64,000 nt of DNA. Source: a virus. Numbering within the stretch: the stretch's first letter is position 1; every line of letters starts with the position of its first letter. The notes under the pieces are model-generated. The model did no database searches. It was not told the origin of the DNA and saw only the letters and a program-made list of their open reading frames with translations. The stretch spans positions 19,582 through 83,581 of IMG/VR virus record IMGVR_UViG_3300005095_000128, one strand, 5' to 3'. The translations under genes and the position numbers were made by a program. Below are positions 1,948 to 53,148 of the stretch, piece by piece.

Positions 1948-2022
1948 TGGCTGGCCGGGCAGGACTCGAACCTGCACCGCCGGGTCCAAAGCCCGATGTG
2001 CTGCCGATTACACCACCGGCCA
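1948..2022 (-). tRNA. tRNA-Gln(UUG) with encoded CCA
   Basis: Cloverleaf TGGCCGG...CTTTGGA anticodon loop...GCAGG TTCGAGT CCTGC CCGGCCA G CCA. Confidence 0.95.
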
Positions 2023-2025
2023 ATG

Positions 2026-2100
2026 TGGCTGGCCGGGTAGGAGTCGAACCTACGACCAGGCGGTTAACAGCCGCCCGCTCTACCACTGAGCTACCGGCCA
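2026..2100 (-). tRNA. tRNA-Asn(GUU) with encoded CCA
   Basis: TGGCCGG TA GCTC AGTGGTA GAGC G GGCGG CTGTTAA CCGCC...GTAGG TTCGACT CCTAC CCGGCCA G CCA. Confidence 0.96.
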
Positions 2101-19619: not shown

Positions 19620-20945
19620 CTACGCAACCGCTCCTCGCGCAACGTGGAAGGCCATCCGCTCCGTACCCGGTCGCGGCTTGCTAGCAGAAACCTGGAAACC
19701 GAACAGGAACCTCCATCGTCGCTTCTTCGCTAGCCAGCCGTGCGGATAGAACAGGTTGGCAAGTTCGTCGAGGTAGTGCCTCATGTAGGACGGCATGCGC
19801 TCAAGATCGCGCTTCATTCGCTCGAGGAAGGTCAACCAAACCCATGCACCATACTGGGAGCCGTAGCGGTAGACCCAGCGCCAGTTCTCGATCCACGCAA
19901 GCAGCGTGGAGTGGGACACGCCAACCGCCCTGGCCGCCGCCCGCACACTCGCACCAGCGTTGATGAGCATGAACGCGAACGCATGACGCGGCGACCACTC
20001 AGCCTTCGAGGCGCCAAAAACGTTGTAGGCAACGTGAATCTTGGGCTCCTGGTGGGTGGTCGGTTTTTCGGGTGTAATCATGGAAGCATCCCCTTTGTTG
20101 TGAGGTTGCAAGCCATTATTAATCTCCTTAAAGCCGAGGAAAGAAAGTGAGGCGTTCAATTCATGCCCGGCGTCATAGAACGGTATTTTGACCACCGGAG
20201 CAATTTGCTTAAAGCTCTCCTTACTAAGCGTTCCTAAGTAAGGAGAGCTTTCTTTCCTAACATCCACTTGACGTAAGGTGCTGTAGAATTCGACGAAGAA
20301 ATCCTTAGCAATCCTATCAAGGTAGAGTAAGATACTAAGACCTCCAAGGTTACTAGTGATGCTAACGTAGCCGTACTCCTCGAGTCTTAGTAGATACTTT
20401 CTAAGTACATCGAGATTCATAGGAGCTACGCGGAGCAATTCCGCACGCCGGACCATCAGCCTTGGTGTTCCAAATTTCTGTCGCTCGATTTTTTTCGCGG
20501 TGCTACGCAACGGACGCGGGCGGGCGAGCGCGGCGAGCAGCGAGTGCAGTACGCGTGATGCGTTCGTATCTGGCAGCTTCCACGCCGCCCATGCGCCACT
20601 CTCGAGGCCGCGCACCATGCCGCTGGCCACGTCGCGCACGGTCAGCGGCTTAGCAAACTCCTCGCTTTCGAGAAGAATCTCACGAGCCCCATCGTAGCCG
20701 TAGGCGTCGATGAGGTCGCGCACTGTGGCCTGCCCCACGGCGTCCATGTCGAGGACGCGTGGGTATGCTCGCTTGTAGATGGCCAAGCGCTTGGCTACGC
20801 CCTTTGCCTTCCTGTGCTGGCTCCTTGGGAAGACGATGAGCACTTCCTCGCCATCGCGCACCTCGCTCTCGCGCCAGGTGGCTCTCGTTCCTAGCGCGAG
20901 CTCGAGCATCTTGGCGTCGCCTGGCGAGTAAGCCAGCACAACCAT
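19620..20945 (-). CDS. Multi-HTH DNA-binding protein, candidate replication initiator
   Basis: wHTH-like RAELLRVAPMNLDVLRKYLLRLEEYGYV and HTH GASVRAAARAVGVSHSTLLAW. Near-leaderless start after TTGCAT-17-TATACT. Confidence 0.5.
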   Translation of the reverse strand: MVVLAYSPGDAKMLELALGTRATWRESEVRDGEEVLIVFPRSQHRKAKGVAKRLAIYKRAYPRVLDMDAVGQATVRDLIDAYGYDGAREILLESEEFAKPLTVRDVASGMVRGLESGAWAAWKLPDTNASRVLHSLLAALARPRPLRSTAKKIERQKFGTPRLMVRRAELLRVAPMNLDVLRKYLLRLEEYGYVSITSNLGGLSILLYLDRIAKDFFVEFYSTLRQVDVRKESSPYLGTLSKESFKQIAPVVKIPFYDAGHELNASLSFLGFKEINNGLQPHNKGDASMITPEKPTTHQEPKIHVAYNVFGASKAEWSPRHAFAFMLINAGASVRAAARAVGVSHSTLLAWIENWRWVYRYGSQYGAWVWLTFLERMKRDLERMPSYMRHYLDELANLFYPHGWLAKKRRWRFLFGFQVSASKPRPGTERMAFHVARGAVA

Positions 20946-24976: not shown

Positions 24977-25315
24977 GCAACTTGCCGAGTTTGCACCAAA
25001 GCTCAAGGAGGCCAAGCGCATCGCGAACAAGAACCCCGTGCTAGGGTACTTCAAGATTCGCGCGATCATCGAAGAGTTAGAGCGACGCTACGGCGTCAAA
25101 GATGGGCGTGAGTACCTGGCAGAGATCGAGGCCATCGGGAAGGAAGATGATACAGGGTAGGATCGTTTACCGCGTCGCAAGGGGCGGGCCGCTTGATGGC
25201 TTCCGGCTCGCCACGCTCGAGGACGACAGAGAAATCATCGTTAGGCTGGATGACGGCAAGTACGTTTACGAGGTGCACGAAAACGAGTTGAGATACGTTG
25301 GGGTGCTCTATGAAG

Positions 25316-25756
25316 ATGGAGGAGAGGCCGAAGATCGTTGAGCTCACGAACGTGCTTTGGGAGCTCGCGAAGCTATCGGCCGAAGCCGTATGCGAGCAAA
25401 ACGGCTCACGAGCCGGTGTGACGGCACACGCGGCCGAGTTCTGCTACCTAGTTGAGAGCCTACAATATGACAACATCGCAACGCTAAACACCTTCGGCGA
25501 GGTTGACGAAGAGGCTTATAGCTCGGTTGTGTACGTTGCCGAGCGCTCGTCTACCATCGATGGGAACGACACGTTCGAGGTGCACGATGACTACCGCGTG
25601 GTTTATCACCAGCCGACCGGTAGGGTATTCGCCGTGCGCAATGACGTGACGGAAGGAACCTACGACCTTGGCGGCAACGTAGTGCTCGTCGTGCACGCTA
25701 TGAACGACCTCGAGGCACTCTTTGCCAAGGAGCTCGATCAACCAAAAGCCTTTTAA
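25316..25756 (+). CDS. Hypothetical protein
   Basis: Last ORF of the rightward operon. Confidence 0.55.
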   Translation: MEERPKIVELTNVLWELAKLSAEAVCEQNGSRAGVTAHAAEFCYLVESLQYDNIATLNTFGEVDEEAYSSVVYVAERSSTIDGNDTFEVHDDYRVVYHQPTGRVFAVRNDVTEGTYDLGGNVVLVVHAMNDLEALFAKELDQPKAF

Positions 25757-25762
25757 GCGAGC

Positions 25763-25803
25763 AAAGTAAACCGGCGCCGGTTGTTCCGGCGCCGGATGTT
25801 TTA
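25763..25803. terminator. Bidirectional intrinsic terminator
   Basis: CCGGCGCCGG-TTGTT-CCGGCGCCGG flanked by an A-rich left side and a T-rich right side. Confidence 0.8.
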
Positions 25804-26037
25804 CCTAGAAGGGGCGCTTTGAACCGACCCGACCTGACCCGCCTAGTCTATCCGGTAAGGAGGCTCCTATGAGGAACGAACCTGGGAGGGTGCTCAGCTC
25901 TGGCACTTGCCGCGCCCACGGCCTTGGAAAGGAGGTGCGATGATCCGGTTAAAACCCCCGCGCTGATGGACCCGAGGAGGTGATAGCCTTGCACCGCCCC
26001 TTCTAGGTTTTGGCCAGGAGGGCTTTCCTCCTTGGCT
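25765..26037 (-). ncRNA. Candidate ~270 nt structured sRNA with four anti-SD motifs
   Basis: Own promoter TTGACA-18-TATGAT (26073-26044), 5' hairpin, 14-bp closing stem 25803-25816/25995-26008, and a terminator. Confidence 0.6.
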
Positions 26038-26069
26038 ACCTAGATCATACTAACCGCACGCGGCGTGTG

Positions 26070-26570
26070 TCAACCCTTCTTCTTGCGCCGGCGCTTTGGC
26101 CTAGCGGACTCCCAGCGCTCCTCGTTGACGTTGGCCTTCTCGAAGTAGGTCTTGAGCACGTCGTCGCGCTCGATGCCGAACTCCTCACCAAGGCGTAGTA
26201 GGAGGTACGGAACACGCCTCGAAAAGCGCACGCTACCGGCCGCCGCAAGGATGTGCCTGATCGTATCCGGCATGTCCTTTGGTGTCACGTCTTCGTAGAG
26301 TAATTGCGTGCCGTCAGCACGACCATCCTTTAACACGAGTGCAAGTGCGAAGTGCAGCACGTCGGCGAGTTCTTCGGTGGCACGCTCCTTGTCGGTGACG
26401 AAAGCGTCGCCGTGGCGCTTCCACCACGCCCACTTGCCTTTGACCGCGTTCAAAAACTCTCCGAGCTCGGCGACGAGCGCAACCACAAGCTCGCCACGGG
26501 TCGGCTTGTACTCGAGCTTGTCCTGTAGCTCGCGTTGTCGTTCTAGGGTATCGGCTAGGCTATACATCAT
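26070..26570 (-). CDS. dut: Dimeric (all-alpha) dUTPase
   Basis: AELGEFLNA..KWAWWK...EELADVLHFAL...YFEKANVNEERW. Confidence 0.88.
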   Translation of the reverse strand: MMYSLADTLERQRELQDKLEYKPTRGELVVALVAELGEFLNAVKGKWAWWKRHGDAFVTDKERATEELADVLHFALALVLKDGRADGTQLLYEDVTPKDMPDTIRHILAAAGSVRFSRRVPYLLLRLGEEFGIERDDVLKTYFEKANVNEERWESARPKRRRKKKG

Positions 26571-26857
26571 CCCTCCTCGATGGCCTTCTTCTGTTGCAAC
26601 CGAGGTGCCGGGTTGAGCTTCACCATGCGCCGGCGCACGCGCATACCGCGAATGTCGCCGCCGAAGTTCACACTAAACAGCCGTTCGTGCGGAACGAACT
26701 TGCCGCACTTTGCAAACATGACATGGTTGCCCTTCACGAGCACCTCGTCCTTGATGAGATCACAGTACGCACGCAAGACGGCTTCAACGTCTTGCTGGCG
26801 CACCCCGGTGCGCTTGGCGATTTCGCGCTTAATGTCGAGCATCTTCCACGTCTTCAT
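26567..26857 (-). CDS. HU/IHF-family DNA-binding protein
   Basis: EIAKRTGVRQQDVEAVL...GNHVMFAKCGKF...VKLNPAPRL. Confidence 0.8.
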   Translation of the reverse strand: MKTWKMLDIKREIAKRTGVRQQDVEAVLRAYCDLIKDEVLVKGNHVMFAKCGKFVPHERLFSVNFGGDIRGMRVRRRMVKLNPAPRLQQKKAIEEG

Positions 26858-26994
26858 GTTCCAACCCCCTAACACACATAGCGGAATGTGCGCGGATTTC
26901 TTTATCCGCGCACACCCAGAGTGAGGCAAGGAAGGCGTGCCCCGTTCGGCCTCGCCCTTTTGGTTTTGTCACGGGCTACCGCCCGTGCAATAGA

Positions 26995-27055
26995 AGCATA
27001 GCGCATTAGGTGCCCCTTGTCAAGGGTTGCATATATGTCGCACACGTGCTATGTT
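26995..27055. promoter_or_regulatory. Back-to-back promoters
   Basis: Minus strand TTGACA-17-TATGCT. Plus strand TTGCAT-17-TATGTT with ATG 6 nt later (leaderless). Confidence 0.75.
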
Positions 27056-27424: not shown

Positions 27425-27912
27425 TGGAAAGCAAATGTGAACTGGTTAAGGTTAGCATAGCTGAGGCTGCCGATGGCATTGCATGGTTGTTGCTAAACCG
27501 ACACGAGCATATGTGGCTTGCGGCAAAGTTCGCCGCGATTTTGACAGAGCGTTTCGCGCGTATGGATGATGTAAGCGACGACGAACTCGTCGACACAATC
27601 CTGGCGTGGGGAGTGCGCTATTTGTACAACCATACCAATGGTTCCGTACACTTTCCGCACCACTCACTCTTTGCGTTCATTGCAGTAGCATCTCGACGGT
27701 ATGTGCTCACTTTAGATGGGCTCGGGCGCGTCTTGAGTGACACGTGGAGCTTGCGCTTTTCACTTACACAACGTGCACTAGGCGCGGATAGCGAACTCAT
27801 TGTTCGCGTAGGTGGAGCGATTTCGGAAGCGCTTGATCAGATCGGAATGCACGAGCTTGCATCCGATGTGTCGCTATCCACGGAAAGCATGCTAGTGCTC
27901 GAGGCTAGTTAG
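27421..27912 (+). CDS. Hypothetical protein
   Basis: Coupled ORF with GGAGG SD. Confidence 0.6.
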   Translation: MMESKCELVKVSIAEAADGIAWLLLNRHEHMWLAAKFAAILTERFARMDDVSDDELVDTILAWGVRYLYNHTNGSVHFPHHSLFAFIAVASRRYVLTLDGLGRVLSDTWSLRFSLTQRALGADSELIVRVGGAISEALDQIGMHELASDVSLSTESMLVLEAS

Positions 27913-28316
27913 AGCTCGAGTTCAAAAGCAGCAAGCTGTGCGGGTGCGCAACCGAGCGACGGGTCGATGATACTCACGGATACGCCGATGCTACCGTACT
28001 GCATGCAACCAGAGCGCAACATGACCATGATCGACCCGAAGTAATGGCCATCTAAGTTGAACATCAACGACGTGCCATTGCTAACGTGCGTAACCCGCAC
28101 GCGCTTGCTAGCGGCAACCTCCTTCACCTTGCCGCTCTCGTCTAGAATTACGTTGGCCGCATCTTTTGCTCCGTTGCGCACGATGAGCATGCGTGTCTCG
28201 CCATCGATGGCTACGCTGATTTGGTCTTTGCCGTAGTGCGCGTCGTCGAGTTCAATGCGGAACCCGTCGTCAAAGACGATCACCTTCGCATTTGGTTTAA
28301 TACGCCTAACCCTCAT
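27909..28316 (-). CDS. Hypothetical beta-rich protein
   Basis: ATG 9 nt after TATAAT. Confidence 0.55.
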   Translation of the reverse strand: MRVRRIKPNAKVIVFDDGFRIELDDAHYGKDQISVAIDGETRMLIVRNGAKDAANVILDESGKVKEVAASKRVRVTHVSNGTSLMFNLDGHYFGSIMVMLRSGCMQYGSIGVSVSIIDPSLGCAPAQLAAFELEL

Positions 28317-28374
28317 CTCGCCGACATTATAGCGGCGTTGTGGTGAGGTTGCCAATATGCTAACATCTGAGGTG

Positions 28375-28708: not shown

Positions 28709-28816
28709 GCGAGCGGTATGCCGTGGCGGGTTATTGGGCGAATAGCTAGAGGTTCGACTCCTCACCATAGCGCGGTCAAACCGCGCGTGACTCCCGCCAC
28801 GAGTTCGACCGCTCGC
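28709..28816 (+). ncRNA. Y RNA-like (YrlA-like) RNA 1 with tRNA T-arm
   Basis: Stems GCGAGCGGT/ACCGCTCGC and CGTGGCGGG/CCCGCCACG enclose GAGG-TTCGACT-CCTC and two more hairpins. Directly upstream of Ro60. Confidence 0.75.
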
Positions 28817-28833
28817 TTCTAATACGAGAATCT

Positions 28834-28917
28834 CCCCGGTATGCTGCAAGGGGTTACCGAATGTGGATCGGGACACCCTGCTAAGGTGTACAAACCCCCT
28901 TGCGAACTTGACCGGGG
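28834..28917 (+). ncRNA. Y RNA-like RNA 2
   Basis: Stems CCCCGGT/ACCGGGG and GCAAGGGG/CCCCTTGC with the same GGTATGC / GAxxTxGACC internal loop as RNA 1. Followed by a U-rich tract. Confidence 0.7.
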
Positions 28918-28964: not shown

Positions 28965-30467
28965 ATGCAGGTTAACCGTGTAAAGGGTATGTATAATAGT
29001 GCTCGTTCAAAGCTTCCTGGCCGCGAACATGAGATGACCTATAACGACGCCGGTGGCGCCGTCTTCATCGACGATGCGAAGCGACTCGAGCGGTTCATCA
29101 TTCTCGGCATCGACGAGGGGACGATCTACGCTACGCCGGAAGAAATCCATGAGCGTACCATCGAGCTTATTCGCGAGCTTCCCTATGAGACCTTCAAGCG
29201 CGTCATGATCGAGGCGGCACCGAAAGCGTGGCGCAAGCGGAACCCGATTGCGGCCATTGCGATCCGCGCCGCCCTTACCGACGATCGCGCTCTCATTTTC
29301 AACGATTTGCTACCGAACCTTCCTGGCTTGTTCAAGACGCCCTCCGACCTGCTTTACTTCGCCTCCATGTACCGTGGCGCGTTCAGGAAGCCGTTTAGCC
29401 GCTCGGTGCGCCGGTTCGTCCAGCGCAAGCTCCACGACTTCGACGACTACCAGCTTGCCAAGTACCGCAAGCGCTATGGCATTTCCACGAGCGATCTCCT
29501 AAAGCTCGCGCACCCGCACCCTGGCGATCGCAACGCTGTCTTCCACTACCTCCTGGATGGTGAATACACCGACGAACTTGCCGGCACCATCTTCGAGGGC
29601 CTCAAGCTGGCCAACATCGCCGGTACGGTCGACGAGGTGCTCAAGGTCGCCGAGCGCTTCAACCTCTCGTGGGAGATGCTCCCCTCGTGGGCGCTCAAGG
29701 ATGCGGACACCTGGGTTGGCCTCTACCGCATGGGCAAGATTCCGGCAATGGCGCTCCTGCGCAACGCATGGCGCTTTGACCGGGATGGCGTACCAGGCGA
29801 TGTTTTCGATAGCGTTGTGGAAGATCTCTCCAAGATCCACCGCCGTGGCGTGCACCCCGGGTACATCCTGACGGCCGCCATCGAGTTAAAGCGCCGCAAC
29901 GCAAGCTACGATTTGGTCGATGCGCTCTTCAAGGCGTTCGACGCCGCATCGAGTAGCAACGCTGCGCACGACATGCGCATCGGGCTTGCCATCGACAATA
30001 GCGGCTCCATGTGGTGGGGCATGATCGGTGGGATGTTGCGCCTCGAGGCCGCACTCGCGCTTGGTAGCGTGATCGACTCTGCCTTCCGGCGCGTATCGGT
30101 GACCTACTTTAGCAATAGAGCGTACAACCTCAACATCCGCCCGCGTTCCGCGCTCGATAGCTTCGAGGATACGTTGCGCGAGTATAGCGGAGGCACTAGC
30201 GTGGCTAGCGCTCTAAGCCACCTTGCCGATCGCCGTGGCGACGGATACGACGCGACCGTAGTGATCACCGACGAGCAGAACTGGGCTGGCGAGAGCGTGC
30301 AGATGACCTACCAGCGGCACAAGAAGACGCTTGGCAAGCTCATCATCGTGACCGTTGACGCTAGCGCGAAGGGCTCGCTCACCGACCCCAAGGATCCTGA
30401 CCAGGTGACGGTCGTCGGCTTGGTGCCCGAGATCGACAAGGTGATCGCTGAGTTCGTGCGCGGGTAA
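28965..30467 (+). CDS. rsr: Ro60/Rsr-like TROVE + vWA RNA-binding protein
   Basis: NDAGGAVF, RLERFIILG..GTIY, YQLAKYR, DLLKLAHP, MALLRN; vWA MIDAS DNSGSM, GGT, ITDEQ. Own promoter TTGATT-17-TAAGCT. Confidence 0.92.
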   Translation: MQVNRVKGMYNSARSKLPGREHEMTYNDAGGAVFIDDAKRLERFIILGIDEGTIYATPEEIHERTIELIRELPYETFKRVMIEAAPKAWRKRNPIAAIAIRAALTDDRALIFNDLLPNLPGLFKTPSDLLYFASMYRGAFRKPFSRSVRRFVQRKLHDFDDYQLAKYRKRYGISTSDLLKLAHPHPGDRNAVFHYLLDGEYTDELAGTIFEGLKLANIAGTVDEVLKVAERFNLSWEMLPSWALKDADTWVGLYRMGKIPAMALLRNAWRFDRDGVPGDVFDSVVEDLSKIHRRGVHPGYILTAAIELKRRNASYDLVDALFKAFDAASSSNAAHDMRIGLAIDNSGSMWWGMIGGMLRLEAALALGSVIDSAFRRVSVTYFSNRAYNLNIRPRSALDSFEDTLREYSGGTSVASALSHLADRRGDGYDATVVITDEQNWAGESVQMTYQRHKKTLGKLIIVTVDASAKGSLTDPKDPDQVTVVGLVPEIDKVIAEFVRG

Positions 30468-50200: not shown

Positions 50201-53148
50201 GCCGTGCGCAAGTGGACAACCACGCTCACGTCGCAAAGCAAGCAGATCTTGCGCGAACTCGAGGGCGACGAGCCGGTTCTTGTGCTAGTTAGCTGGCGTG
50301 CTGGCGAGCTCATCGAGAAGGCGGGGGTCGTTTTCAAAAATGTCGTCATCGCCTCACCAGATACATCGACGTTCTTCATCGACGAGGGTGGCAATTTAGC
50401 CGTTGAGCGTATCACCATTCACTCCGATGGGAGGCTCATTGAATGACAACGAGTAGGGCCATTTCGCTTTTTGCGTTTGTGGTGATGTTCATCACGCTTA
50501 TAGCCTGGCCAATGGCTAAGCGCTACGTTGAAGCGCATCCGCGTCCTAAGCACTACAACGAGGACATTGTTCTCATTGCGGATGCGCTCGACCTAGCTAA
50601 TGAACGTCTTGAGCGCATGGGAGAATCGCTCCGCCAAGCGGAGGAAGCACTCGAGCTTGCTTCACAAAAACTCGACCTGCTCGAAGACGCCCTCCGCGTG
50701 CGCCAGGGCAAGATGCAGTGGATCAACGCTGAGGTCACCGCGTATACGCCGTACTACGAATCAACGCAAAAGACTCCTAGCCACCCAGCATTCAACATCA
50801 CAGCAAGCGGATTGCGTGGTGGATTCGGCGTGTGCGCGGCTGATCCGATTTGGCCGTTTGGCACGGTTTTTTATGTACCAGGGTTAGGTGCTTGCGTTGT
50901 CCTCGACCGCGGTGGAGCCATCCGCAACCACCGCACAGGAGGGCGGCACGCGATCGACTTCATGGTTGCGCCGGAGTGGTTGGACCGCACAACCGCAGTG
51001 CGCATCGCACGCGAATGGGGCCGTAGAAGGCTAGCCGTGCGTGTGCTCTATGTGCCATAATGGAGATGCTATGGACGTGATGGATTTGTATCACCAGGTA
51101 CGCAAAGCTGATCGGAACACGTTCCTCGGCATGCTCAAGGAAGCCAAGGACGAGGAGCTGATTGCGATTCAGAACGTTCTCGAACTGCTCCGCGTTGAAC
51201 TCGACGGAAAGCTCAAGGCGAAAGCGACCCTCGCTGAAAAGGCAAGGGTAGATGGCGACAACGATCGTCTGAGCCGGATTCTTGAAGAGATTAGCCAATT
51301 GCAAACCGGCATTGGCTGGACAAAGTGGAAGGAGGTGGCATTGCGACATGAGTTTGAGAGGAGGTTCAAGCGTGCTGAATCGCTTGCGGAACAAGTCGAG
51401 CAATATCTCCTCAAGCACGCTTGATGGCCAGGCCGTTGTACTTGCGTCGTCGGCGGAGCTAAGCACCGATCGCTTCGCCGGCGATGTGATCGCACAGCTA
51501 ATCGATCGGTACGGCGCCGAGGCAACCGGGGTGGTGGAAGCCATCGTACAATCACGCATTCCAGGCTACTACCCGCATCTGCACCGCCGGTACTTCGTGC
51601 GCCGCTTGGAAAGTGTCTTCTCGCGCCCTAGCGACAAGCGGGCGCAAGCAGCGATGGCGATGCTACAGCGCATCGCCTCGCATGTGAAAGCGGGGGAGGT
51701 GGAGATGGCATGACATTGATGCAGCTTGCTAGTCGACTCCAAAAACTTGGCCTAAAAGTTGTTAAAAAAGACGGTGGCTTGTTGATTTCTTTCAATGGCA
51801 AGACCGTGCGCGTTGACCAGCCCGACGAAGAACAACTTCGACAGATCGCCAACAAGCTCGTTGGGCGTGGGTACGGGAAAAAGTTCGTCGAGGCGTTCCT
51901 CGGACTGACACCCATGCACCCGTACATTGCACACGTATTCGAGTCGACGATCGGATCCTGGGGTGACGTGATCACCCCAGAGGATGCGAGGCGGCTAAAA
52001 ATGCCACCCGAGGCGCTCGTCGAGGGTAATTTGCTCCTTGCCTACGCCATTGGCAGCGAGGTGCACATTCGCCTCGCGTCAGCGGTAAGTAAAGCCCTCG
52101 AGCGCTTGGGTATGCGCGAGACCGGTCCGGCGCGAGCAGCGCTCGCCGACGCCATCAAAAAGGCTGGCCTCGATGAGCCGTACCACATCGAGTACGGTCC
52201 TGGCCTTCGCGGGCGTGGTGAGCGTTTCGTGATTCGCGAGGGAAAGCTCAAGGACATATGGGAACAATACATTGACGAGCTCGTTAGCCTCGGCGAAGAA
52301 ATCTTCTCCTCCGTCGAGGTTGAAGTTGCCGACAAAGACGTGATCTCGGCGATGGCCACGCTCATCGAGGCTGGCGTGGTCAATGCCGATGGCGGCATCA
52401 ACATGAACAAGTTCCGCCGTGTGCTCGAGGAGGCAAAGCGCCATGCGGTGCCCGCGGTGCGGTCGTGACATCTATGCGGATGATTCCCACTGGGGACACG
52501 GCTCAACTACATGCCCGATACGCGCATTTGCTACTCTCGATGACTTCAAGGCCGAGTTTGCCCCTTGGGGCATCGACTCTCCCCGGCGCTTGCCCCGCGA
52601 GGCAATTGTGAACCACGTCCCGCTCATGGTGGATCGGGCGCTTGCGCTACTCATCACGCAAGCGCCAGAGGATCTAAGGCGGCAAATCAAAAGGATTGTC
52701 GGGAGGTGATAGCATGATGTGTGAGGAAAGGATCAAGGCTGGCAAGAAGATGATGGAGTTCTTGGGGTCGCTGTGCCGTGAGCAGTACATGGAGTACCCG
52801 TTGTGGTGTGCATTCAAAAGCAATCGCTATGGCATCGTAGAGTTGATTGATGAATTTAACAACGCAATGCGCGAGCTCGTACATAAACTAGATGCATCAT
52901 TTTGGACCAAGAGCCAGTCGTTCTCCATCAAAGAGATTACGACTATACCAGAAGGAAACCACCCCCTCCTTGCGGCTGCTCGTCAAGTTCTAGAAGCCGA
53001 AATGTGGCGGATCATCTACAACGCGCTCCAATTTGTCAAGCCAAAGGGTGTGAGGCTACAGCTTTATGTGCACCTCACAAACAAAGACCGCAAGCTCAAC
53101 CTAGAAGTAAGGGTTGAGCCGAGGTGGGAAGGGGAGGAAGCTGAGTGA
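41226..53148 (+). CDS. Array of about 30 small hypothetical early/host-takeover ORFs (e.g. 41860-42270, 43105-43593, 44193-44975, 46486-46884, 47653-48186, 48192-48812, 51710-52468)
   Basis: Closely packed ORFs with strong GGAGG SDs. No motifs recognised except the 3D protein listed separately. Confidence 0.65.
50443..51060 (+). CDS. Membrane-anchored 3D-domain (MltA-like) cell-wall protein
   Basis: TM helix, coiled coil, then VTAY...ITASG...AADP..PFGT..YVPGLG...DRGGAI...IDF...WGRR. Confidence 0.88.
   Translation: MTTSRAISLFAFVVMFITLIAWPMAKRYVEAHPRPKHYNEDIVLIADALDLANERLERMGESLRQAEEALELASQKLDLLEDALRVRQGKMQWINAEVTAYTPYYESTQKTPSHPAFNITASGLRGGFGVCAADPIWPFGTVFYVPGLGACVVLDRGGAIRNHRTGGRHAIDFMVAPEWLDRTTAVRIAREWGRRRLAVRVLYVP

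What the first reader, a model, noticed from the sequence alone, without database searches (positions are those of the whole stretch)
25765..26073. Independently promoted sRNA carrying four 16S-like anti-Shine-Dalgarno motifs (or a minigene chain on the other strand)
Seen: a minus-strand promoter TTGACA-18-TATGAT (26073-26044), a 5' hairpin, a perfect 14-bp stem (25803-25816/25995-26008) and a terminator. Inside, the minus strand reads CAAGGCTATCACCTCCTC, GGATCATCGCACCTCCTTTCC, GCACCCTCCC and CATAGGAGCCTCCTTA. Three of these are complements of SD + spacer + start codon, and the first two closely mimic the 16S 3' end (GGAUCACCUCCUU). On the plus strand the same text is a chain of coupled minigenes: 25869-25943 (24 aa), 25940-25966 (MIRLKPPR), 25966-25983 (MDPRR), 25989-26006. 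Inference: a multivalent antisense or anti-SD decoy RNA that silences several host or phage translation starts. GGAGGTGATAGC also occurs at the RBS near 52702. Alternatives are a ribosome-sponge minigene array or a GGA-rich CsrA sponge.
Basis: partly seen in the sequence, partly recalled or inferred. Interest (0 to 1): 0.8.

Follow-up and report, generated by a model that had tools for sequence, protein, structure and literature searches.

The report
Candidate phage anti-Shine-Dalgarno small RNA
Between two converging genes of an uncultured phage lies what looks like a gene for a folded RNA of about 270 bases that carries several copies of the ribosome's own mRNA-docking sequence, so it may damp translation starts, but no relative, transcript or specific target was found.

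Summary
This covers the near-consensus minus-strand promoter, the 5' hairpin, the perfect 14-bp closing stem, the GC hairpin terminator and the plus-strand mini-ORFs. The stretch holds 5 GGAGG (CCUCC on the minus strand) in 248 nt, the densest such window in the 83.6-kb virus record.

Transcription signals favour the minus strand. The element lies between the dUTPase-like gene and the only terminator that could end that operon, and it also has its own promoter.

The specific claims are not supported:
- Its modules match phage ribosome-binding sites no better than ordinary GGAGG sites match each other. The 12-mer at 52702 is at chance level.
- Its likeness to the 16S tail is no greater than that of the complement of any strong Shine-Dalgarno site in this phage.
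- The CCUCC motifs are not predicted to be exposed.

No relative, Rfam family or peptide homologue was found. A Ro60 gene lies 3 kb away, but better Y-RNA candidates sit next to it.

My best reading is a new, unconfirmed member of the known class of RBS-masking small RNAs or 3' UTRs. This scan has noted similar phage anti-SD RNA candidates on other DNA (83 notes). Interest is modest.

The parts
26044..26073 (-). Sigma-70-type promoter TTGACA-18-TATGAT. The -35 box overlaps the stop codon of the upstream dUTPase-like gene. Inferred start near 26037.
   Evidence: 11 of 12. (2 sites at 11/12 or better in the record against 0.3 in shuffles). Sequence.
26012..26036 (-). 5' hairpin in which an SD-like AAGGAGG pairs with CCCUCCU.
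   Evidence: pairing probability near 1. (opening cost 13.3 kcal/mol).
25995..26008 (-). 5' arm of the perfect 14-bp closing stem.
25970..25987 (-). Module 4, GCUAUCACCUCCUCGGG. It is an anti-SD with anti-UUG (CAA) 8 nt away. The loop CAAGGCUAU is predicted to be open and the CCUCC paired.
   Evidence: The 10-nt identity to the E. coli 16S tail is.
25925..25949 (-). Module 3, GGAUCAUCGCACCUCCUUUCC. It is an anti-SD with anti-AUG.
25881..25898 (-). Module 2, GAGCACCCUCCCAGG. It is an anti-SD-like word without an anti-start.
25853..25871 (-). Module 1, CAUAGGAGCCUCCUUACC. It is an anti-SD with anti-AUG, partly self-paired with the adjacent AGGAG.
25803..25816 (-). 3' arm of the closing stem.
25771..25795 (.). 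Two-way terminator-like hairpin with 10 G-C pairs. It lies 14 nt after the stop of ORF 25298-25756(+) and 275 nt after the stop of the dUTPase-like gene.
   Evidence: No other minus-strand terminator-like site lies between 26070 and 25796.
26070..26570 (-). Upstream gene of the same transcription unit, a dUTPase_2 / NTP pyrophosphohydrolase. The element would be its 3' UTR if read through.
   Evidence: PF08761, 1.6e-15. (phrog_173, 9e-20).
25869..26006 (+). Rival reading: a chain of four mini-ORFs (24, 8, 5 and 5 codons) with SD sites 5, 4 and 8 nt before three of the starts.
   Evidence: Spacer distribution. No plus-strand promoter at 9/12 or better.

Best explanation
The stretch is a gene for a non-coding RNA of about 270 nt on the minus strand. 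The RNA is made from its own near-consensus promoter and also as the 3' UTR of the HU-like/dUTPase-like operon. It ends at the GC hairpin 25795-25771. It folds into a domain closed by a 14-bp stem behind a protective 5' hairpin.

Its four CU-rich words (CACCUCC-type) are complements of the phage's own standard Shine-Dalgarno site, GGAGGTG. Three of them are followed by an anti-start codon. The RNA most likely pairs with SD-led translation initiation regions in a generic way and lowers their translation, as csRNA-, cuckoo- or RoxS-type small RNAs do. The partners could be phage genes, host genes, or its own operon in cis.

Shown: the signals, the motif density, the fold and the absence of specific targets within the phage. 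Inferred: that the RNA is made, that the motifs open up, and that pairing affects translation.
For: - Promoter 11/12 at the right place.
- The only terminator-like site that could end the minus-strand operon lies beyond the element, so minus-strand transcription through it is expected whether or not the internal promoter fires.
- No plus-strand promoter at 9/12 or better, and no plus-strand terminator after the element.
- GGAGG/CCUCC density is unique in the record.
- The 14-bp long-range stem is unusual. Fold z-score is -2.45.
- The phage uses GGAGGTG as its SD: 28 copies on the + strand and 6 on the - strand, and 78 of 214 GGAGG sites precede an ORF of 40 aa or more. Partners are therefore plentiful.
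- The cost of opening modules 1-4 (4.3-6.2 kcal/mol) is well below the duplex gain (-14.7 to -17.9 kcal/mol).
- In one strain variant (run X1, one contig covering 25000-26159) the core 25803-26008 has 1 listed difference. ORF 25298-25756 has 15, and 26091-26118 has 6.
- The 48-aa minus-strand ORF has no homologue or family. Its start lies inside the 14-bp stem.
Against: - No transcript evidence exists.
- No relatives were reachable, so there is no covariation or conservation test.
- The CCUCC motifs are not predicted to be exposed: mean unpaired probability 0-0.43 and P(5 nt open) of 0.005 or less. The known families show them in loops or linkers.
- No target within the phage is matched better than chance.
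- A crude duplex scan did not separate the RNA from its sense text or from shuffles.
- The strain evidence is weak. 25000-25297 also has at most 1 difference, so diversity is patchy. Table 3 leaves 120 rows unshown.
- The SD-plus-start layout fits real plus-strand translation starts equally well.
Confidence: 0.4

Rival explanations
1. The element is a structured 3' UTR or insulator without a trans-acting role. It would stabilise or terminate the dUTPase operon message, and the GGAGG words would be relics of decayed small genes or incidental parts of the fold.
For: - The element sits in the 3' UTR position.
- The motifs are mostly paired.
- No target exceeds chance.
- No relatives are known.
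- Codon scores of both candidate ORFs fall between coding and non-coding values.
Against: - The element has its own 11/12 promoter.
- Five GGAGG sites in 248 nt is an extreme for the record, and only one is balanced by a CCTCC partner on the same strand.
- A perfect 14-bp closing stem is retained.
Confidence: 0.22
2. The plus strand carries a chain of coupled mini-ORFs (24, 8, 5 and 5 codons) that are translated. They would yield either tiny peptides or lambda bar-like minigenes that tie up ribosomes or peptidyl-tRNA. One of them reads ATG GAC CCG AGG AGG TGA.
For: - The ORFs and their stop-start overlaps are real.
- Three starts have strong SD sites at 5, 4 and 8 nt, within the phage's range of 5-8 nt with a mode at 6-7.
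- In this phage 78 of the 104 GGAGG sites followed by a start codon precede an ORF of 40 aa or more.
- Minigenes of 3-8 codons and AGG/AGA codons near a start codon sequester tRNA (abstract of PMC2490762, seen in the listing).
Against: - They lie downstream of a 10-bp GC terminator hairpin. There is no plus-strand promoter at 9/12 or better and no terminator after them.
- The start codons next to GGAGG are only about P = 0.05 (plus my own arithmetic).
- Mean codon score is -0.04 to -0.14, below the in-frame mean of 0.22.
- The AGG AGG pair is simply the next SD site.
Confidence: 0.15
3. The element is a third partner RNA (Y-RNA-like) of the phage Ro60 protein encoded 3 kb away.
For: - Ro60 (TROVE + vWA_Ro60) is at 28965-30467(+).
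- The element lies within the 4-kb range used by Chen et al. 2014 (PMC4201824, sections read).
- Its ends pair in a long stem, as in Y RNAs.
Against: - It has no GNCGAA motif on either strand, no T-arm, and none of the GGTATGC loop shared by the two Y-like modules at 28709-28917.
- The likely strand is opposite to the Ro60 gene.
- ARAGORN and Rfam find nothing.
Confidence: 0.05
4. The plus-strand RNA is a GGA-rich sponge for a CsrA/RsmA-type protein.
For: There are 8 GGA words in 248 nt on the plus strand.
Against: - Only 3 of them are A-N-GGA.
- They are not predicted to sit in hairpin loops.
- There is no plus-strand promoter.
- The host is unknown, so whether it has CsrA is unknown.
- No CsrB/RsmY/RsmZ family hit in Rfam.
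Confidence: 0.03
5. The minus strand encodes a 48-aa protein (GTG 25994 to TAG 25848).
For: The ORF exists downstream of the promoter.
Against: - No homologue and no PHROG family.
- The start codon lies in the 14-bp stem, with a poor SD only 2 nt away.
- Codon score is -0.04.
- The one strain difference in it (25895) changes the amino acid.
Confidence: 0.03

Closest known systems
csRNAs (cia-dependent small RNAs) of streptococci (PMC3091779; abstract and passages read)
   Same: These are small RNAs with a promoter and a terminator. They carry an anti-SD word followed by an anti-start codon (CAU in 53 of 61) and are proposed to block translation initiation regions. Modules 1 and 3 here have CAU, and module 4 has CAA, at SD-to-start distance.
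   Different: csRNAs are 51-202 nt with two stem-loops, and the anti-TIR word lies in the unpaired linker. They depend on CiaR promoters. Here there are three or four such words in one closed fold of about 270 nt. The words are predicted to be mostly paired, and the promoter is of the sigma-70 consensus type in a phage.
Cuckoo / alpha-r14 RNAs of Alphaproteobacteria (PMC4615179; passages read; Rfam RF02344 as named there)
   Same: They carry several anti-SD words in one RNA. The question of global versus specific RBS occlusion is open there too.
   Different: The defining CCUCCUCCC loop motif is absent here (read). There is no series of 2-4 hairpins showing the motif in their loops. No Rfam hit.
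RoxS/RsaE, S. aureus RNAIII and LhrC C-rich-seed small RNAs; icaR 3' UTR anti-SD (all recalled, not read here)
   Same: They use several C-rich regions that pair with SD sites. The icaR 3' UTR anti-SD acts in cis on its own message.
   Different: In those RNAs the C-rich words sit in loops. None of these families matched in Rfam.
c4 antisense RNA of phages P1/P7 (review PMC12197685; passages read)
   Same: A phage-encoded RNA that blocks a ribosome-binding site by pairing, with the complementary words thought to lie in loops.
   Different: c4 has a specific target (ant mRNA). No specific target was found here.
Lambda bar minigenes and toxic minigenes (abstract of PMC2490762 seen in the listing; the bar details are recalled)
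   Same: Very short ORFs with strong SD sites in a phage, one ending in AGG AGG.
   Different: They need plus-strand transcription, for which no signal was found.
YrlA/YrlB bacterial and phage Y RNAs (PMC4201824; sections 5, 6 and 18 read)
   Same: The element lies within 4 kb of a Ro60 gene and its ends pair in a long stem.
   Different: It has no GNCGAA motif and no tRNA-like T or D arms, and it is on the opposite strand. Better candidates lie at 28709-28917.

Membership tests
csRNA-type anti-TIR small RNA | Anti-SD plus anti-start word complementary to translation initiation regions | tested here: met
   Modules 1, 3 and 4 are complements of SD + 5, 4 or 8 nt + ATG, ATG or TTG.
csRNA-type anti-TIR small RNA | The anti-TIR word lies in an unpaired region between two stem-loops | tested here: not met
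   P(CCUCC fully unpaired) is 0.005 or less. Mean unpaired probability is 0-0.43. This is a single-sequence prediction only.
csRNA-type anti-TIR small RNA | CiaR-activated promoter; size 51-202 nt | tested here: not met
   The promoter is a sigma-70 consensus type and the RNA is about 270 nt. The CiaR box was not searched for, since its sequence is only recalled.
Cuckoo / alpha-r14 (RF02344) | CCUCCUCCC motif in the loops of 2-4 consecutive hairpins | tested here: not met
   No CCUCCUCCC is present; the nearest word is CCUCCUCG. The motifs are not in loops. No Rfam match even at E up to 10.
YrlA-type Y RNA | GNCGAAN0-1G motif near the 5' end | tested here: not met
   The regular expression found none on either strand.
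YrlA-type Y RNA | tRNA-like T and D arms | tested here: not met
   ARAGORN found only two tRNAs, at 1948-2100. GGTTC occurs twice on the minus strand, but not in a T-arm hairpin.
YrlA-type Y RNA | Within 4 kb of Ro60 and on the same strand | tested here: inconclusive
   The distance of 2.96 kb meets the rule. The favoured strand is opposite to the Ro60 gene.
YrlA-type Y RNA | Match to the authors' covariance model | not testable with these tools
   The model is in the paper's supplements, which are closed. Rfam gave no Y-RNA hit. However, it also gave none for the Y-like RNAs at 28709-28917, so this blank carries little weight.
Lambda bar-like minigene | Very short ORF with an SD site, transcribed and translated | tested here: inconclusive
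   The ORFs and SD sites are present. No plus-strand promoter at 9/12 or better, and a terminator hairpin lies upstream. Expression cannot be tested here.
16S rRNA 3'-end fragment or mimic | Likeness to the 16S tail beyond what any SD complement has | tested here: not met
   - Identities to the E. coli rrsH tail are 9-10 nt, equal to those of ordinary phage SD complements.
- The SSU model finds nothing in the record.
- The 17-mer of module 3 gave 74 hits in bacterial and archaeal genomes. In 0 of 74 was it preceded by GGATCA, as it would be at a 16S end.

The most novel reading that the evidence does not exclude
The phage makes a scaffolded RNA that carries four ribosome-like anti-SD tails. 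The RNA acts as a general competitor of the 30S subunit for SD-led messages. This would be a timing or host-shutoff device that spares leaderless or weak-SD genes. It is encoded beside the phage's own Ro60/Y-RNA module and might work with it.
Probability: 0.12. Interest if true: 0.7.

Novelty: new member of a known kind. Interest (0 to 1): 0.3.

Why it matters
If the RNA is real and active, it adds a phage example to the RBS-masking small RNAs. It would show that a phage can carry a general brake on SD-dependent translation rather than an antisense RNA against one gene. The three literature searches run here turned up no published phage small RNA with generic anti-SD words. The review PMC12197685 (passages) names specific cases such as c4. 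The evidence for this particular locus is thin, resting on one sequence with no transcript. Its main value is as one more case in a pattern that this scan has noted repeatedly in other phages.

Tried and rejected
**Searches for relatives (all blank)**
- blastn of 25000-27000 against phage records found nothing.
- Ro60, the dUTPase-like protein and P0002 were searched in viral, metagenome and genome contigs without result.
- The large terminase reaches at most 28% identity over 80 loci, too distant to use.
- Exact-pattern scans of viral contigs for the closing stem and for modules 3 and 4 found nothing.
- The only near relative seen is protein P0002 (46% identity to the Ro60, on a 79-kb JGI contig). 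Its DNA could not be fetched.

**Y-RNA idea.** This was my first guess after finding Ro60. I dropped it.

**Transposon (MITE) idea.** The 14-bp inverted repeat has no copies elsewhere. The 8-nt direct repeat TACCTAGA is about what chance gives, and it is not next to inverted ends.

**Other checks**
- No tandem repeat of modules was found by TRF.
- There is no paralogue in the record.
- The whole-RNA duplexfold scan against 353 candidate starts was uninformative, because long loops are allowed. The observed mean was -41.4, against -38.2 to -39.7 for shuffles.
- The single strain difference at 25895 says nothing about strand or fold.
- Codon scoring was inconclusive.

**Sequencing runs.** No RNA holder was listed. 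The four runs are DNA contigs from one study and may include the source sample. X3 and X4 leave parts of the stretch without cover.

Full report
**What is there.** The window is part of an 83,581-base IMG/VR virus record with an estimated completeness of 61%. The flagged stretch fills the gap between two converging genes.
- One is an unassigned ORF at 25298-25756(+), with no Pfam or PHROG family.
- The other is a dUTPase_2 / NTP-pyrophosphohydrolase gene at 26070-26570(-) (PF08761 at 1.6e-15; phrog_173 at 9e-20). It follows an HU-like gene.

- The promoter TTGACA-18-TATGAT at 26073-26044(-) matches 11 of 12 positions.
- A 5' hairpin lies at 26012-26036.
- The perfect 14-bp stem pairs 25803-25816 with 25995-26008.
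- A hairpin of 10 G-C pairs lies at 25771-25795 and scores as a terminator on both strands.
- The four CU-rich minus-strand words are there.
- The four plus-strand mini-ORFs translate as stated.

**Is it more than chance?** Yes.
- Promoter-like sites at 11/12 or better number 2 in the record, against 0.3 in shuffles.
- The 14-bp repeat is the only perfect inverted repeat of 14 bp or more with a loop over 11 nt, among 14 repeats of 12 bp or more. Repeats of that length arose in 2 of 10 shuffles.
- The 248 nt hold 5 of the record's 111 plus-strand GGAGG and 4 of its 40 AGGAGG. No other window of that size has 5.
- Fold energies are moderately better than shuffles on both strands, with z-scores of -2.45 and -2.05.

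**Which strand?**
- The GC hairpin stands 14 nt after the stop of the plus-strand ORF but 275 nt after the stop of the dUTPase-like gene.
- No other minus-strand terminator-like site lies between them.
- So the minus-strand operon message should run through the element, and the element also has its own promoter.
- On the plus strand the element lies behind the terminator hairpin. It has no promoter at 9/12 or better and no terminator after it.
- I therefore favour a minus-strand RNA of about 270 nt, either as a separate small RNA, as a 3' UTR, or both. This is inference; no RNA data could be had.

**Known families.**
- Rfam gave only two tRNAs in the window, and nothing for the element even at E up to 10 beyond noise.
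- ARAGORN found no tRNA-like or tmRNA gene here.
- A Ro60 gene (TROVE + vWA_Ro60) lies at 28965-30467(+), so I tested whether the element is a Y RNA.
- It lacks the GNCGAA motif, the T and D arms and the same-strand rule described by Chen et al. (PMC4201824, sections read; tests).
- Much better candidates sit right before the Ro60 gene at 28709-28917. They share a GGTATGC loop and have a T-arm-like GAGGTTCGACTCCTC and a fold z-score of -5.05. Earlier notes of this scan also point to them.

**The antisense claim.**
- Exact words shared with the rest of the phage are at chance. The longest is 12 nt, with 2 of 12 nt or more. Thirty shuffles gave means of 12.7 and 2.5.
- I aligned all GGAGG sites on their core. 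The five element sites then reach 8, 9, 9, 12 and 9 contiguous matches to their best partner.
- The 208 ordinary sites average 10.46, and 41 of them reach 12 or more.
- The 12-mer at 52702, in front of ATG 52714 of the gene before the large terminase, is thus not special.
- The host is unknown, so host targets could not be tested.
- A scan of bacterial and archaeal genomes for the 17-mer of module 3 gave 74 scattered hits. Many fall in one conserved Bacteroidota coding sequence, and none forms a coherent target set.

**The 16S-mimic claim.**
- Against the E. coli rrsH 3' end the minus strand shares runs of 10, 10 and 9 nt.
- The complements of ordinary phage SD sites share as much.
- The SSU rRNA model finds nothing in the record.
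- None of the 74 genomic hits lies at a 16S end.
- The likeness is just what any complement of a strong SD site has.

**Display.**
- In the partition function the CCUCC words have mean unpaired probabilities of 0 to 0.43.
- The chance that all five bases are open is 0.005 or less, no better than typical 5-mers of this RNA.
- Two of the words are paired with SD-like words of the same strand.
- Opening costs of 4.3-6.2 kcal/mol are still well below the duplex gain. Pairing is therefore feasible but not favoured by design, unlike in csRNAs (PMC3091779) or cuckoo RNAs (PMC4615179).

**The phage's own translation signals.**
- About half of 121 crude ORFs (62) have an SD-like word at a plausible start.
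- 78 of 214 GGAGG sites precede an ORF of 40 aa or more.
- GGAGGTG is common, with 28 copies on the + strand and 6 on the - strand.
- The spacer peaks at 6-7 nt.
- An anti-SD RNA would thus meet many phage messages as well. The idea of a phage that escapes because its genes are leaderless is not supported as a general rule.

**The coding rivals.**
- The mini-ORFs have SD sites at 5, 4 and 8 nt, inside the phage's range but off its mode.
- Start codons follow 26 of the 136 GGAGG sites that do not precede an ORF of 40 aa or more, so 3 of 5 here is only about P = 0.05 (plus my arithmetic).
- Codon scores of the plus-strand chain and of the 48-aa minus-strand ORF (-0.04 to -0.14) lie between coding values (0.22-0.23) and non-coding values (-0.35).
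- The 48-aa ORF has no homologue or family.

**Strain variation.**
- Contigs from four DNA runs of one study cover the stretch.
- In run X1 one contig spans 25000-26159 with 26 differences, of which 25 are listed.
- Of these, 15 lie in ORF 25298-25756, 2 at 25796 and 25799, 1 in the core (25895), 1 at 26038, and 6 in 26091-26118.
- The element is thus quieter than both flanks. However, 25000-25297 is quiet too, and 120 rows of the table are unshown. I take this as a weak hint only.

**Verdict.** The most likely identity is a minus-strand non-coding RNA or 3' UTR carrying generic anti-SD and anti-start words. That makes it a new and untested member of the known kind of RBS-masking RNAs. This scan has noted similar phage anti-SD RNA candidates on other DNA (83 notes). 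This one is among the less well supported because nothing comparable could be aligned to it.

Noticed in passing
window 28965-30467 (+): Phage Ro60/Rsr orthologue (TROVE 2.5e-16, vWA_Ro60 9e-15). The nearest database relative is 46% identical, on a 79-kb JGI contig. Ro-like proteins of actinophages are about 28-30% identical.
   Followed up: partly
window 28709-28917 (+): Two stacked-stem RNA modules lie just upstream of the Ro60 gene. They share a GGTATGC loop, and the first has a T-arm-like GAGGTTCGACTCCTC. Fold z-score is -5.05. No Rfam hit.
   Followed up: partly
window about 26090: In runs X1 and X2 the differences from the window begin abruptly at 26091 inside the 3' end of the dUTPase-like gene, with 6 in 28 nt. 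This looks like a mosaic or recombination boundary next to the element's promoter.
   Followed up: no
window 28355-28326 (-): This is the second promoter-like site at 11/12 in the record, TTGGCA-18-TATAAT, at the start of ORF 27909-28355(-).
   Followed up: no
window 1948-2100 (-): Adjacent tRNA-Gln(TTG) and tRNA-Asn(GTT) genes.
   Followed up: no
window 20211-20251: A perfect 15-bp hairpin (AAAGCTCTCCTTACT, loop 11), one of the two longest perfect inverted repeats in the record.
   Followed up: no
window 26002-26044: TCTAGGT (26002-26008) can also pair with ACCTAGA (26038-26044) around the 5' hairpin. In read-through transcripts from the dUTPase gene this would compete with the 14-bp closing stem, giving a possible two-state fold. 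I read this and did not model it.
   Followed up: no
loci L085, L087, L090 and others: The 17-mer of module 3 recurs in a conserved protein-coding context in many Bacteroidota genomes (Chryseobacterium, Riemerella, Chitinophagaceae). This is unrelated to the element.
   Followed up: no
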